Positions 3,001 to 9,000 of a stretch of 64,000 bases of DNA are shown here, one piece after another. A program made the position numbers. The stretch is from Candidatus Reconcilbacillus cellulovorans (GTDB lineage Bacteria > Bacillota > Bacilli > Paenibacillales > Reconciliibacillaceae), in the NCBI GenBank assembly GCA_002507565.1, contig MOXJ01000010.1:1-64000 (forward strand), given 5' to 3'. Position 1 is the stretch's first letter. Each line of letters opens with the position of its first letter.

Positions 3001-6000
3001 GCCCGAAAACGACAAAATTTTCCATATCTCAAAAGAAGATTTGCCGACTGTGGAGACCATGCTTCCGGAGCGGAACTGGACGATTTTCTGGAAGTTGTTC
3101 GTTCTCCTCAAGATATGCGAAAAATTTCGTTCCATGCTTCTATTTTTGTCGGATGAGGCGTTGCGGTCGTGGATCAAGGACAATTTGGAGCATTCAAATA
3201 AGAGATTCTTTTTAGAGAAGTTAGGTCTTCTTTTGAAAGAACCGTTTTTATCGTCGCGTCTTGACGAGACGTTCCGGCAACTTCACGAACGATCGGATCG
3301 ACAGATCGTGCTGTTGTGGGACGGGCTTGACCGGGATTTCGGCATCGAAAGGGAACAAAAAGAAAGAAGAAGCCGTGTTTTGACAGGTCTATTTTATTTT
3401 TGGAATTCGATAAGTGATTTAGATAAATTACAGGCAAAGATTTTCCTTAGGAAGGATATTTGGGAGAAGATTGTTTTTGAAAATAAAAGTCACTTGTACG
3501 GAAGAACGATGACGCTTGAGTGGAACAACATGTTTGAGTTTTATAAAACCTTGATTAAACGAATTTATCAAGATCCAGTCCGTTCGGATTTGCAAAAGCA
3601 TTTTTCAAATGTGAAAAAAGTTGTCCTTCCTGATAATGTGGATAATTGGACAGAAGAACAGGTTATGGATGTTTTTCATGTGTTAGTAACCGAACGTATG
3701 CGGGGTGGAAAAACGGCCTATACGCGCAACTGGATCTGGTCGCGGCTGTCCGACGGCAAAGGCAACCGCAGTCCCCGGTATCTGCTTCAGCTGTTCGATA
3801 AGGCTGTCCAGCTGGAACGCGAAGAACACGCGCGTAGTCCGCACGAGCGGTCGATCATTCGGTCGAAGTTGTTGATCGAGGCTTTTCATCAAATTTCCGG
3901 GGAAGCCGTCCAGGCGGTTACGGAAGAGTACGAAGAGTTGAAGCCGTTATTTGAAGCCTTGTACGGCAAGACGGCCCCTTTCGACTATCATTCCGTGCCG
4001 TCCGACGTGATGGATCCGGAAATTTTCGAAACCGCGGTCGAAGCCGGCGTGCTTATCGTTTACGAGCACGATGATCACGGACGGCCAACCCGCCTGACGG
4101 TTCCGGATCTGTATCTGAAAGGTTTGGGCATGTCGAGACGGGGGCAGGCGTGAGGCGACGTGGAAACGGCGAAATGGCTCTTTTTGCAGATGCGTCCGGC
4201 GCAATGGACGAAAAACGCGCTGGTGTTCGCCGCGCTCGTGTTTTCCGCCGACAAGGTCGGTCTGCAAGAAATCGTACGGTCGACGGCGGCGTTCGTGCTG
4301 TTTTCGCTGGTGTCGGGGTGCGTCTACATTCTGAACGATTTCGTCGACCGGGAGGCGGACCGGCTTCATCCGGAGAAACGCCACCGGCCGATGGCGTCCG
4401 GTCGTCTCCGCCCCGCGACGGCTCTTGCCTTCGGTGCGGCGGTGCTCGCGTTGTCGATCGCGGCAGCGTTTGCGGCGGATGCGGCGTTCGGCACGGTGCT
4501 GACGGTTTATTTCGCGCTAAACGTTGCGTATTCGCTGTGGTTGAAGCATGAGGTCATTCTGGACATCATGCTCGTGGCCGCCGGGTTCGTGCTGCGCGCA
4601 CTCGGCGGTGTGCTGGCGATCGGGCTGCCGTTTACGCCGTGGTTTCTGTTTTGCGTGTTTGTGCTGTCGCTTTTGCTGGCGATCGGAAAACGGCGGCACG
4701 AATGGCTGCTTTTGCGCGGCGGCCGCGGCGAACACCGCAAGGTGCTTGAACGATATACGGAAACGTTGCTCGATCAATTGCTTGTCGTGGCGGCGACGGC
4801 GGCGATTCTTTCTTACGGGCTGTTTACGTTTTTGTCCGGCCGGTCAGTGCACCTGATGTGGACGGTGCCGATCGTCATCTACGGCGTGTTTCGGTATTTA
4901 TATTTGGTGTACGCGCTCGGGGAAGGCGGCAAGCCGGAGGAACTCGTCTTCCAGGATCGCGGCATGGTGGCGGCGATGCTGTTGTTCGGCGTGACGGTCG
5001 TTGTGGTGCTGATCTGGTTTTGAGATGGGGAGGAGTTCGAGGTGTTGCGGGAAAAGGTGGGGGCGACCAGCGGCGGCGCGGCGCTCGTGATCGCGGCAGC
5101 GCTGGCGGTGGCGCTGGCGGCGGGGTGGCTTTCGCTTTTGTTTGCGCTGCCGCTTGATGCGTGGCCGCTGGGCGGGTTGACGGCCGTTTTGACGGCGACG
5201 GCGGCGTGGGCGCTGCGTCGAACCGGCGTCCGGGTATCGGCGGCGTCGGCGGTGTCGGCGTCGGTGGTTCTTGCCGGTTCGGTCGTTGCGGCGGTGTTCG
5301 TGATGGACACCTCTTACGACGGACAGGTGTACCATATGCTGGCCGTCGACGCTCTGCTTCGCGGCTGGAATCCGCTGTACCATCCGGAGTACCCGGATTC
5401 GGTGTGGGTGGAACATTATCCGAAAGGTTCCTGGCTCATCGCCGCCTACATCTGTGCTTTCGTCCCGACGATCGAGGCGGGCAAAGCGATTAATCTCTCG
5501 GCGGCGGCCGGCGCTTTTTTTGCGTCTCACGCGTTGGCGGCGCAATGGCTGGCAAGACGGGAGTCCGGAAAACGGGGGGGCACGCAACTCGGCGGCGTCG
5601 GTCGGTCGGCGCCGCGGGCGACGCGGGCGGCGGCGTTCGTCGTTGCGTTCGCGGCGGCTGCCAATCCGGTGGCGGCGGCGCAGCTGTTCACCTATTACAA
5701 CGACGGTTTGCTCGGCAGTCTGTTGCTCATGTACGCGGCGTCGCTGGCGCGTTTTTCGGTCGCACGGGACCGCGGAGCACTGGCGACGGCGATGTTCGCG
5801 GCGATCGTGCTGGTCAACGTGAAGTTTACGGCATTGGTCTATGCCGCGTTGTTCGGCGCGGCGTTCGCGGTGTATGAAGGATGGAGGGCGTGGTCGCGCG
5901 GGCGTACCGCCGACTGGCTGAAGGCCGTCGGCGCCTTGGCGGCGGCCGGTGTCGTCGGTGCGGCGGTGCTCGGGTTCAATCCGTACGTAACGAATGCGGT

Positions 6001-9000
6001 GCGCAAAGGGCATCCGTTTTATCCTGTAGAAGGTAAAGGAAAAATCGATATTGTAACAGCTAACATGCCTGAGGATTTCGTTGGGCGGTCGAAATGGGAC
6101 AAGTTTTATCTGTCGCTGACGGGGAGGCCGGGCAGTCCGATTGGCCCGGCGTCGTCCGAGCGGCGCTCGTCGTTCTGGGACGTGCGGCCGGACGAGTTTC
6201 GCAAGCTCGATCCGGATACCCGTGTGGCCGGGTTCGGGCCGTACATGCACTGGCTGCTGCTCGGCGCGGCGCTCGCGGTGCTGACGATGCTGGCGACGGA
6301 CGTCCGGGTCGGCCTCGGCGTTTTGCTGCTGGCGGCGGTGCCGGCGGCGACGGTCGCTGTCAATCCGGAAAACTGGTGGGCACGATATGTGCCGCAGCTT
6401 TGGTGGCTTCCCGCCTTGGCGGCGGCCGGCGGATGGATGGCGCGGTCGCGTCTGGCGGCTGCACCCCGCGCGGCGGCATTGTGCCTGGCGGCACTCTTGT
6501 TGTGGAATGCGGGCGGTTCGGTCGCGGCAACGGTGGCGCGTCAGGTAAACAACAGCTTAAAACTCGATGAACAGCTGGACGCGCTGCGCCGAGAAAATAC
6601 CGAATTGCGGCTGTTCCGCGAAGGGCTCGGTTTCGTGTCGGTCCCGCTCCGCCTGGAAGAGCGAGGTATCCGTTACATCGCTGTGGACAAGGCCGGCCTC
6701 TGCCCCGATCCGCAGAAAATCTTGTTTTCCACCGCCCGCTATTGCAAGGCGACGGACGGGACGTGATATAATTTTCAATATCTTGGGACATGACCGGCAG
6801 AGGGGAGCATGACCGGTGGGCGACGGACGGGCCGAAGACGTACGGAGGGAAGGCGTTTTGGAGCGTGTGCGGCGGCTGGTGTTGTCCGAACTGGAACCGT
6901 GGCCGGTCCGCGTCTGGTTGTTCGGTTCTTGGGCGCGCGGGCGACAGCGGCGTTCGTCGGACATCGACGTCGCGGTATGGCCGGTTCGGCCGTTGCCGGC
7001 CGACGTGTTGCCGAAACTCCGCGAACGGCTGGAAGAATCGGACGTTCCTTATCGCGTGGACGTCGTCGACCTGTCGGCGGTCGATCCGGTATTTCGCTCG
7101 GTCGTCGAGCGGGAGGGAATTTTGTGGAAGGATGGCGCAGACGGTTAGCGACAGCCGAAAAGGCGCTGGCGTCTCTGAAGGAGCTGGTCCGGGTCGAACG
7201 TCCCGACGCGGTGCTGAGGGACGCGGCCATCCAGCGTTTCGAGTATACGTTCGAAACGGTGTGGAAAACGGCCAAGAGCTGGTTGTTTGAAGAAGAAGGC
7301 GTCGACGTCGCTTCGCCGAAAAGTGTAATCCGTTCGTGCCGCGAAACGGGGCTGCTCGACGACGGAGACGCGGTCAGGGCGCTTCAGATGGCGGACGACC
7401 GGAATCTGACCGTTCATACGTACGACGAGAGATTGGCGGGCGAAATTTACGCCCGCCTGGGCGATTACGCCGCGCTGCTCGCGCGGTGGCTGGACGCGAT
7501 GCGCCGGCGGTCGCCAGCGGGTGAGGGCGCGGACGGCGAAAGCCGGCCGGTCCGCGACGACGGCGGGACCCGTGCCGAAGACGCGGCCGGTGCAAGCGGC
7601 GCAAACGGGGGGGATGGCTGATGCTTCTCGGCGGCATCGAGGCGGGCGGCACGAAATTCGTGTGCGGCGTCGGGACGGAAGACGGCGAAATCGTGGAGCG
7701 CGTCCGGTTTCCGACGACGACGCCGGAAGAAACGTTGGAGCGCGTCGCCGCCTTTTTCGCGGACAAGCCGATCGAGGCGCTCGGCGTCGGCGCTTTCGGC
7801 CCGGTCGATCTTCGTGCGGACAGCCCGACGTACGGACAAGTGACAACCACGCCGAAGCCGCATTGGAGCGGGTTCGATCTGCTCGGCGGACTGTCCCGTC
7901 GGCTGCGGGTGCCGGTCGGGTTCGACACGGACGTCGGCGCGGCGGCGCTCGGCGAGGCGACGTGGGGGGCGGCGCAAGGGTTGCGCGATTTTGTCTACAT
8001 GACGGTCGGCACCGGCGTCGGCGCGGGCGTCGTCGTCGAAGGGCGTCTCGTACGCGGGATGCTGCATCCGGAGGTCGGCCACATGCCGATCAGGCGACAT
8101 CCCGACGATCGGTTTGCGGGCTGTTGCCCGTATCACGGCGACTGTCTGGAAGGGATGGCTTCCGGCCCGGCGATCGGGAAACGGTGGGGCTTACCGGCCG
8201 ACGCCCTCGCCGATCGTCCGGAAGTGTGGGAGCTGGAAGCGTATTATCTCGCGCAGGCGTGCGTCACTCTTATTTATGTGCTGTCGCCGCAACGGATCGT
8301 GCTGGGCGGCGGCGTCATGAAGCAGAAGCAACTGTTTCCGGCCGTCCGGCGGCTCGTCGTCGAAACGCTGAACGGCTACGCGGCGGCCGAAATGTCGCGC
8401 GGCATCGACGCCTACATCGTGCCGCCTGCGCTCGGAGACAACGCGGGGCTGAAAGGAGCGCTGCTGCTGGCGCGGCGCGCGCTGGACGCCCGGCGCCGTT
8501 GAAGACGGACGGAGACATGAAGGCGCCGGCGTCGTATCGGTCGTGAAATGCCGTAAGGGGGATAGGGCGTGGAGAGCAATTTCATCCGCACGATTGTCGA
8601 AGAAGACGTACGGTCCGGCCGCGTCGGGGAAGTCGTGACGCGTTTTCCGCCGGAGCCGAACGGCTATCTGCATATCGGGCACGCCAAGTCGATCTGTCTC
8701 AATTTCGAGCTGGCCGACGAATTCGGCGGGCGGACGCATCTAAGGTTCGACGACACGAATCCGCTGACGGAAAGCGAGGAATTCGTCCGCGCGATCCAGG
8801 AAGACGTGCGCTGGCTCGGGTTCGAGTGGGAGCGGCTTTGTTTCGCGTCGGACTATTTTGAAGAAATGTACGAACGGGCCGAGCTGCTCATTCGCAAAGG
8901 CAAGGCGTACGTCTGCGATCTGAGCGCGGACGACATCCGGCGCACGCGCGGGACGCTGACCGAACCCGGCGTCGAGAGCCCGTACCGCAACCGGTCGGTC

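What a model noticed while it worked through the whole genome (the two positions that open the first line are those of the whole stretch)
4160..6766. Polyprenyl-phosphoribose synthase paired with an unnamed GT-C transferase, no DprE1
A UbiA-type decaprenyl-phosphate phosphoribosyltransferase is followed by a 574-aa polytopic membrane protein without family, in a genome lacking the DprE1 epimerase. I read the pair as making undecaprenyl-phosphoribose and transferring ribose(-5-phosphate), not arabinose, onto a surface polymer or protein. New: lipid-linked ribosylation in a Gram-positive envelope and a new GT-C family.
Evidence so far: g00290 40.4% to C. glutamicum DPPR synthase. g00291: no Pfam/NCBIfam hit, 42 homologs across phyla, one with PMT Pfam, one labelled RgtA-like; invariant D-x-x-D-G-Q-x-Y-H first-loop motif typical of GT-C. 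Paenibacillus validus has ubiA (63%)-small transporter-GT-C (41%) in one operon. ALO/DprE1 family absent in six frames here while the control rings in C. glutamicum; only FAD_binding_4 protein is MurB. No paper.
(Added by a program. Inside this text positions count along the whole contig: contig position 1 is position 1 of the stretch shown here. "Call 12" and the like, gene names such as g00115 and contig names such as C1 are that model's own, and its searches are not shown. The text may have been shortened before it was handed on; [...] marks where a part breaks off. The agent that wrote the report below was given it as the finding of a first reader that could run no searches.)

Follow-up and report, generated by a model that had tools for sequence, protein, structure and literature searches.

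The report
Lipid-linked ribose transfer, new transferase family
Two adjacent genes of a Gram-positive bacterium encode an enzyme predicted to load ribose phosphate onto a membrane lipid carrier and a member of a large unnamed transferase family predicted to pass the ribose on to a cell-surface glycan, which likely extends a pathway described in 2024 in Citrobacter to a new enzyme family.

Summary
4160-5023 is a polyprenyl-phosphate phosphoribosyltransferase (above the NCBIfam cut-off, catalytic motif intact). 5042-6766 has no family name but models as a GT-C fold (pLDDT 95, ArnT Z 17). DprE1, DprE2 and the xylose-type epimerase were not found in this 99.6%-complete genome. The pairing is common: 53 of 78 related loci carry the synthase, most also an SMR/GtrA flippase and a DUF212, HAD or PHP phosphatase. 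And the chemistry is in print: Kelly et al. 2024 proved undecaprenyl-phospho-ribose transfer in Citrobacter (GT136) and listed Gram-positive candidates. What is new: this transferase family (2,405 clusters at E<1e-30) shows no sequence similarity to GT136; DUF212 gains a predicted role as the 5'-phosphatase; and 90 of 93 synthase-bearing genomes of the window's order lack DprE1, so ribose looks like the default there. The window's copy is stripped to two genes. It likely borrows the genome's single GtrA flippase and an unlinked phosphatase. Its subclade lacks a phosphatase gene in cis, so transfer of ribose-5-phosphate remains open (about 12%). The acceptor is unidentified. New variant of a known kind; interest 0.5.

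The parts
4160..5023 (+). Polyprenyl-phosphate phosphoribosyltransferase (PPPRS/DPPR synthase, UbiA family), 287 aa, without a fused HAD phosphatase domain
   Evidence: NF008977 251.5 bits over cut-off 234; PF01040; 8j8j E 7e-39
4334..4360 (+). Asp-rich catalytic loop N59-D60-x-x-D63-x-x-x-D67, same spacing as N247/D248/D251/D255 of Citrobacter ORF15; R178/E181 match R366/E369
   Evidence: translation read against the residue list of PMC11127046; alignment to 8j8j
5024..5041 (+). 18-bp gap with a Shine-Dalgarno-like GGAGG; relatives carry an SMR flippase gene at this position, the window does not
   Evidence: sequence; locus maps
5042..6766 (+). GT-C-fold transferase of an unnamed family, 574 aa; predicted ribofuranosyltransferase
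   Evidence: model pLDDT 95.2, pTM 0.95; top 19 structural matches are 16 GT-C transferases and 3 GPI-transamidase chains, best ArnT Z 17.2; linkage to the synthase
5306..5335 (+). First external loop motif D89-T-S-Y-D93-G-Q-V-Y97-H98; D93 is the predicted catalytic base
   Evidence: D93 in 150 of 150 rows; it starts the helix after the transmembrane helix 67-86
6374..6388 (+). W445-W-A-R448-Y449 motif; R-Y is placed like R349-Y350 of GT136, which that paper models as contacting the ribose and the phosphate
   Evidence: R448 149 of 150, Y449 128 of 150; element order compared by eye between the two models

Best explanation
[quoted passage not shown] Shown here: family and motif of the synthase, predicted GT-C fold, tight linkage across phyla, and no epimerase orthologue found. 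Inferred: the lipid (undecaprenyl), the activity of each enzyme, the alpha linkage (by analogy with inverting GT136), the partners in trans, and the acceptor. Candidate acceptors in this genome are a Wzm/Wzt-exported rhamnose glycan (contig C105) and a pyruvylated wall polymer (C28).
For: Synthase over the curated cut-off with intact motif. GT-C fold. Linkage: synthase inside 53 of 78 loci; of the 25 loci without it, 21 genomes have it elsewhere, against 1 of 14 control genomes. In 301 genomes of the window's order, all 34 with the transferase family are among the 93 with the synthase, and 36 of 37 matches lie within 1.2 kb of it (compared by hand). A phosphatase lies in the locus in 45 of 53 synthase-bearing loci: DUF212 30, HAD-IB 12, another HAD 2, PHP 1; unrelated phosphatase folds in the same slot argue that the phosphate comes off. 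SMR flippase in 43 loci, 30-40% identical to the ORF14-type flippase. DprE1 model NF053785: none in the own genome, 2 of 70 carrier genomes, positive control G301 found; 3 of 301 order genomes, each beside a synthase. DprE2 and ORF13 probes give only generic hits in the own genome, which are RmlB, GalE and a GalE-like protein. A distant family member (28%, E 3e-9) sits in an operon with synthase, GtrA, DprE1-like and SDR genes on a Cereibacter plasmid, so the family follows the pentose donor whichever epimer is made. Gram-positive synthase/GT-C pairs sharing one GtrA in trans are known (PMC8035078 passages; PMC7389260 abstract); this genome has exactly one GtrA match and two PAP2 matches.
Against: No biochemistry and no glycan structure for any carrier. 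The own genome has no orthologue of the cassette's SMR, DUF212 or HAD-IB genes, so both partners are guesses; the GtrA gene belongs to another GT2/GT-C operon and neither PAP2 match was tested as a 5'-phosphatase. The nearest relatives with context (L005, L006, L007) also lack a phosphatase in cis, and the genomes of L005 and L006 have no DUF212 at all. The counts are not independent: 32 of the 34 order genomes belong to one family, 17 of the 78 loci are Brevibacillus, and the two sets overlap. 4 of 25 genomes showed no synthase (assemblies of unstated completeness), and three gut-metagenome loci showed none in their flanks. The best structural match, ArnT, has a lipid acceptor; a fold match does not give the acceptor.
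Confidence: 0.6

Rival explanations
1. The window's subclade transfers ribose-5-phosphate: the donor is flipped with its 5'-phosphate on and the GT-C adds an anionic phosphoribose branch.
For: The window's protein sits in a supported subclade (SH-aLRT 98) with L005, L006, L007, P0004, P0007; none with context has a phosphatase in cis, whereas the sister clade has DUF212 behind the GT-C. The own genome and those of L005 and L006 have no DUF212 and only weak, generic HAD matches. Kelly's phosphatase-dead mutant accumulates the 5'-phosphorylated lipid.
Against: P. validus has a second, complete cassette whose DUF212 could serve in trans. I saw no subclade-specific basic residue in the conserved motifs; the changes there are Q-E to M-L at 99-100 and Q to L at 223, partly shared with the DUF212-bearing sister clade. 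PAP2 and other HAD genes are available, and the mycobacterial phosphatase is a separate gene unrelated to HADs.
Confidence: 0.12
2. The cassette is a decaying remnant in this genome: flippase and phosphatase were lost and nothing is transferred.
For: Both partner genes are missing. A lower-GC candidate defence module ends 6 bp upstream and may have displaced the promoter.
Against: Both frames are intact and keep every invariant residue. A relative at 85% identity is also full length (P0004). GC3 of both genes (0.77) is host-like. Pairs without linked partners occur elsewhere (L057, L029, L066), and L057's genome has the cassette-type HAD at another place.
Confidence: 0.1
3. Same donor chemistry, but the acceptor is a protein (S-layer or secreted glycoprotein) or a lipid rather than a polysaccharide.
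For: Structural neighbours include ArnT, Pmt and oligosaccharyltransferases; a few homologs hit PMT/PMT_2 weakly. Most Bacillota cassettes stand alone, outside polysaccharide clusters.
Against: Where the family has a glycan context it lies among GT2/GT4/GT8, flippase or ABC-exporter genes (Solibacillus L053 and L078, Bacteroidota, cyanobacteria). It spans monoderms, diderms and an archaeon, so lipid A cannot be the general acceptor.
Confidence: 0.1
4. The sugar delivered is xylofuranose or arabinofuranose, made by an epimerase that my probes do not recognise.
For: One SDR suffices for xylose and GT136 accepts both donors. A distant member of this family lies in a DprE1/SDR operon. Two carrier genomes have DprE1-like genes elsewhere.
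Against: No DprE1, DprE2 or ORF13 probe hits any ORF of the 78 loci at E 1e-10. Where DprE1 occurs in the window's order it sits beside the synthase (3 of 3). Own-genome hits are 25-38% identical and generic.
Confidence: 0.08

Closest known systems
Citrobacter youngae O1 three-component Ribf system: ORF15 (PRP-PPPRS), ORF14 flippase, ORF12 GT136 (Kelly et al. 2024, PMC11127046)
   Same: PRPP-using UbiA-type synthase with the same catalytic motif; small four-helix flippase in relatives (30-40% identical to the ORF14 type); GT-C transferase; no epimerase means ribose
   Different: The transferase shows no sequence similarity to GT136 (profile-profile probability 0.4%), has two extra N-terminal helices and no DUF7024/CBM domain. 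The phosphatase is a separate gene (DUF212, HAD-IB, other HAD, PHP), not fused. Host is a Gram-positive; in the window flippase and phosphatase genes are missing.
Mycobacterial DPA pathway: Rv3806c, Rv3807c, DprE1/DprE2, Rv3789, Aft/Emb
   Same: First step and enzyme family (8j8j, E 7e-39); GT-C acceptor-side enzymes (AftA, AftB, AftD, Emb among the structural matches)
   Different: No DprE1/DprE2, so no arabinose; one transferase, an accessory and patchy system rather than an essential wall polymer
Gram-positive multi-component transmembrane glycosylation systems (CsbB-YfhO-GtcA, CsdAB/CD/EF-CflA; PMC8035078)
   Same: Two-gene synthase plus GT-C pair that relies on a shared GtrA flippase elsewhere in the genome
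   Different: Those load hexoses or GlcNAc from UDP-sugars with a GT-A enzyme; the passages I saw list no pentose, and 'ribose' and 'pentose' do not occur in that review's text
ArnT (GT83) with ArnE/ArnF
   Same: Best structural match (Z 17.2, rmsd 5.7, 389 aligned, 13% identity); the relatives' SMR gene scores best, below cut-off, on ArnF
   Different: No sequence match to any PDB chain; no ArnA-D pathway in the loci; donor synthase is of another family

Membership tests
Polyprenyl-phosphate phosphoribosyltransferase (DPPRS/PPPRS) | Score above the curated family cut-off | tested here: met
   NF008977 251.5 > 234; NF008978 218.7 > 207
Polyprenyl-phosphate phosphoribosyltransferase (DPPRS/PPPRS) | N-D-x-x-D-x-x-x-D loop and R-x-x-E loop | tested here: met
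   N59 D60 D63 D67, R178 E181
Polyprenyl-phosphate phosphoribosyltransferase (DPPRS/PPPRS) | PRPP-dependent formation of polyprenyl-P-Ribf-5-P | not testable with these tools
   needs an enzyme assay
GT-C superfamily | Polytopic helical fold matching solved GT-C structures | tested here: met
   pLDDT 95.2 model; 16 GT-C transferases among the top 19 rows, ArnT Z 17.2; Foldseek best E 1.6e-3, none under 1e-3
GT-C superfamily | Invariant acidic residue in the first external loop | tested here: met
   D93 in 150 of 150 rows
GT136 | Detectable sequence similarity to ORF12 orthologues | tested here: not met
   profile vs single orthologue 0.1%; profile vs 29-row profile 0.4%; family profile misses the gene in the E. 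coli record at E 10
GT136 | Functional residues D31, Y35, H106, R349, Y350 at equivalent places | tested here: inconclusive
   D93, Y97, H125, R448, Y449 fall at matching places in the order of helices, by eye only; E34 has no counterpart; no superposition was made
GT136 | C-terminal CBM (DUF7024) as in most orthologues | tested here: not met
   PF22895 in the E. coli orthologue, none in the window's protein; the paper finds the domain dispensable
Three-component pentofuranose system | Synthase and GT-C linked | tested here: met
   18 bp apart; 53 of 78 loci; 36 of 37 order matches
Three-component pentofuranose system | Dedicated flippase gene in the locus | tested here: not met
   none in the window, no cassette-type SMR in the genome; present in 43 related loci; one GtrA elsewhere
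Three-component pentofuranose system | 5'-phosphatase fused or adjacent | tested here: not met
   none in the window; DUF212 and cassette-type HAD not found in the genome; present in 45 of 53 related synthase loci
Arabinofuranose (DPA-type) pathway | DprE1 and DprE2 | tested here: not met
   NF053785 none in the own genome, control found; two DprE1 probes give no hit at E 1e-3, DprE2 probes only E >= 2e-8 against 1e-50 between true pairs
Xylofuranose variant | ORF13-type SDR epimerase | tested here: not met
   no match at E 1e-15; best hits 25-28% are RmlB, GalE and a GalE-like protein; one or two probes only
Any CAZy family numbered after GT136 | Listing of a member in CAZy | not testable with these tools
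   CAZy is not among the libraries

The most novel reading that the evidence does not exclude
The window's subclade has given up the dephosphorylation step and its GT-C transfers ribose-5-phosphate from undecaprenyl-P-Ribf-5-P, adding an anionic phosphoribose branch to a Gram-positive surface glycan. This would be a donor that the known three-component systems always dephosphorylate first, used by a transferase family not yet described.
Probability: 0.12. Interest if true: 0.75.

Novelty: new variant of a known kind. Interest (0 to 1): 0.5.

Why it matters
It puts a testable function on a large unnamed membrane-protein family (2,405 clusters at 50% identity, E<1e-30) and on DUF212. It also says that about a third of the genomes sampled in this spore-forming order can make a lipid-linked pentose, nearly all without DprE1, which predicts ribose side chains on wall glycans that have not been characterised. 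Such side chains typically alter phage receptors and antigens (by analogy with GtrABC). The cassette is four small genes in cultured, harmless strains, so it can be tested directly and could add a second ribofuranosyltransferase family to glycoengineering.

Tried and rejected
GT136 membership by sequence: rejected. Pfam, NCBIfam, PADLOC and PDB-sequence names for the transferase: none. PF04030 as a DprE1 probe: rejected, since 13 of 44 carriers rang through lactone-oxidase-type or partial matches; replaced by a real DprE1-like protein (five N-terminal partial hits only) and NF053785. My first SMR profile was contaminated by a wrong-frame ORF and gave a false hit on the window; rebuilt. Phage collection: no family member with the one query tried. 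Two loci of the paper's Fig. S12 are not in the collections, so its Gram-positive example (Bacillus sp. NP157) and those two were not compared with this family. Promoter scan: nothing above chance. Expression: no RNA holder listed; the one run laid gave three short pieces on the genes and no joint. A subclade-specific phosphate-binding residue: none seen. No structure-to-structure comparison of this family with GT136 was obtained. Papers on ribose in Paenibacillus or Brevibacillus wall polymers or on DUF212 function: nothing relevant in the listings or in term searches of three papers.
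Full report
OBSERVATION. Two same-strand ORFs lie at 4160-5023 (287 aa) and 5042-6766 (574 aa), 18 bp apart. The first exceeds the cut-offs of two decaprenyl-phosphate phosphoribosyltransferase models, matches the solved M. tuberculosis enzyme at E 7e-39 and keeps the N-D-x-x-D-x-x-x-D loop (N59, D60, D63, D67) with the spacing given for the Citrobacter enzyme. The second has no NCBIfam, PADLOC or PDB-sequence match and no Pfam match over a cut-off. The genome is 99.64% complete by markers and encodes a sporulation protein SpoVB; the nearest named relatives of the transferase are Bacillota and Paenibacillus.

FOLD AND FAMILY. A model from 150 sequences has pLDDT 95.2 and pTM 0.95. 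Against 48,161 chains the top 19 rows are 16 GT-C transferases and 3 GPI-transamidase chains; ArnT leads (Z 17.2, rmsd 5.7, 389 aligned). Foldseek ranks the same proteins first but none reaches E 0.001. The Atlas's neighbours are unnamed or weakly PMT-labelled clusters. The family is large: 2,405 clusters at E<1e-30 and 6,104 at E<0.001. D93, D221 and K261 are invariant in 150 rows; R448 is in 149.

LINKAGE. A scan of species genomes found 285 relatives and returned the best 78 loci; all counts below rest on those 78. The synthase lies in 53 of them. For the other 25, 21 genomes hold it elsewhere; the control rang in 1 of 14 genomes. The commonest form (30 loci; Paenibacillus, Brevibacillus, Pelosinus) is synthase, SMR/EamA-type small transporter, DUF212 and GT-C. 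Desulfobacula use SMR and a HAD-IB; Bacteroidota use GtrA and a HAD-IB; Solibacillus L053 has a HAD-GtrA fusion; a Nostocales and a Dojkabacteria locus have another HAD; a Methanosarcinales locus has a PHP gene and a PF03706 membrane protein. In all, 45 of 53 synthase loci hold a phosphatase-family gene. The SMR proteins are 30-40% identical to the ORF14-type flippase. In 301 genomes of the window's order, 93 have the synthase and 34 the transferase family; all 34 are among the 93, and 36 of 37 matches lie within 1.2 kb of a synthase (compared by hand). These genomes are kin: 32 of the 34 are one family, and the set overlaps the 78 loci.

WHICH SUGAR. DprE1 (NF053785) is not found in the own genome and is found in 2 of 70 carrier genomes; the positive control G301 is found. 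In the order sample it occurs in 3 of 301, each time beside a synthase and never in a carrier of this family. DprE2 and ORF13 (xylose) probes give only generic matches in the own genome and none in the 78 loci. Most of the carriers are assemblies whose completeness the tool did not give, so these are 'not found'. A distant member on a Cereibacter plasmid (28%, E 3e-9) lies in an operon with a synthase, GtrA, a DprE1-like gene (E 7e-80 to DprE1) and an SDR. The family therefore tracks a pentofuranose donor, and the epimerase set decides the sugar; here that leaves ribose.

THE WINDOW'S COPY IS REDUCED. The own genome has no cassette-type SMR, DUF212 or HAD-IB gene. It has one GtrA, in another operon with a GtrB-like GT2 and a 1,285-aa PMT-like protein, an SMR pair of another type, two PAP2 matches and generic HADs. 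On a quick tree of 82 rows the window's protein groups (support 98) with L005, L006, L007, P0004 and P0007; those with context keep the SMR but have no phosphatase in cis, while the sister clade has DUF212 behind the GT-C. P. validus has a second, complete cassette; the genomes of L005 and L006 have no DUF212. So the lineage lost the phosphatase gene first and the window then lost the SMR gene (inference from the tree). Both remaining genes are intact and host-like in GC3 (0.77), unlike the module upstream (0.55-0.60). A second assembly at 99.8% identity shows the same arrangement; it is not independent evidence. Sharing of one GtrA among several donors is documented in Listeria and Lactococcus, which makes a flippase in trans plausible. 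The phosphatase is the weakest link and the ground for the ribose-5-phosphate rival.

ACCEPTOR. Not determined. In Solibacillus, Bacteroidota and cyanobacteria the family lies in polysaccharide clusters; in most Bacillota the cassette stands alone, sometimes near GT2/HEAT or GT2/deacetylase/GH18 genes. The own genome has an rml/Wzm/Wzt glycan cluster on C105 and a polysaccharide pyruvyltransferase on C28; either product could be decorated.

PRIOR ART. Kelly et al. 2024 (PMC11127046; I read parts 1-6 of 8 of the text, covering results, discussion and methods, and parts 3-4 of 10 of the supplement as text plus one term search; figures not seen) proved the pathway PRPP, undP-Ribf-5-P, undP-Ribf, flip, GT136 transfer of alpha-Ribf in Citrobacter; showed that one SDR makes xylose; and listed candidate systems including Rathayibacter and a Bacillus with several epimerases. 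The commentary PMC11194591 (passages) repeats this. The window's transferase is not GT136 by sequence. By eye, the two models place D-G-x-x-Y, a His, an acidic residue and R-Y at matching points in the helix order, which fits remote kinship but was not tested by superposition. PMC8035078 (passages) and PMC7389260 (abstract) cover Gram-positive systems with hexose donors. PMC12599335, PMC13721041 and PMC6801904 were term-searched without a relevant passage. Eight searches listed no paper on this family, on DUF212 as a phosphoribose phosphatase, or on a characterised Gram-positive undP-Ribf system; the library lacks most subscription journals, the unread supplement parts and figures may name such loci, and CAZy could not be checked. 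One earlier scan note (e1-1285966, another genome) reached the same comparison with the Citrobacter system; it is not independent support.

VERDICT. A real and well-supported system, but a variant of one published in 2024. The additions are a second, large transferase family, a predicted role for DUF212, and the breadth of DprE1-free donors in a Gram-positive order. Interest 0.5; 0.75 if the window's subclade proves to transfer ribose-5-phosphate (probability about 0.12).

Noticed in passing
window 1054-4153 (+): A 150-aa gene and an 874-aa KGGVGR/Sll1717 ATPase match PADLOC PDC-M28A and a fusion of PDC-M28B with M28C; lower GC than the host, ending 6 bp before the synthase.
   Followed up: partly
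window 6816-7621 (+): MntA-like nucleotidyltransferase and HI0074/HepT-like partner, a type VII toxin-antitoxin-like pair directly behind the GT-C.
   Followed up: partly
window 15325-19047 (-): 1,240-aa helicase with a C-terminal phospholipase-D-like part, matching Mokosh MkoC at E 9e-152.
   Followed up: no
L175:5955-9556, L176, L180, L185: A second widespread cassette: synthase, HAD-IB, one or two SMR genes and a DUF6080 membrane protein (L175, L185), without DprE1. DUF6080 is a candidate third ribofuranosyltransferase family; 34 of 44 genomes of genus g24 have the synthase.
   Followed up: partly
L178, L184, L190, L112: Synthase, DUF212, GT4, GtrA or SMR and a 700-740-aa unnamed membrane protein inside rhamnose polysaccharide clusters; DUF212 again sits next to the synthase, with a different transferase.
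   Followed up: partly
L047:5168-9374; L082:2879-5349: A SAM methyltransferase gene lies beside synthase, HAD and GT-C in a Nostocales and a Dojkabacteria locus; a methylated ribose donor is possible.
   Followed up: no
L074:497-5193: Archaeal (Methanosarcinales) version: GT-C, synthase, PHP-domain gene and PF03706 membrane protein, suggesting another phosphatase and flippase for the same job.
   Followed up: partly
L109:5389-8721: Lactococcus cremoris plasmid polysaccharide cluster with an unnamed membrane protein, synthase, HAD-IB and GtrA and no epimerase in the stretch; a food-grade test case. Its membrane protein did not match this family.
   Followed up: partly
L189:5929-13707: A genome of the window's order with synthase, DprE1 (499.5 bits, cut-off 500), SDR, a further epimerase, a flavin oxidoreductase and an 810-aa membrane protein, like the elaborate Bacillus system mentioned by Kelly.
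   Followed up: partly
L221:1270-6608 (own genome, C41): A separate three-gene system: 1,285-aa PMT-like membrane protein, GtrB-like GT2 and the genome's only GtrA match.
   Followed up: partly
L181:10591-12834, L186, L187, L188: A conserved 740-760-aa single-helix protein without Pfam or NCBIfam match follows the GT-C in several cassettes; DUF4127 takes that place in Pelosinus.
   Followed up: no
P0071: A 1,062-aa family member fused to an acyltransferase-3 domain.
   Followed up: no
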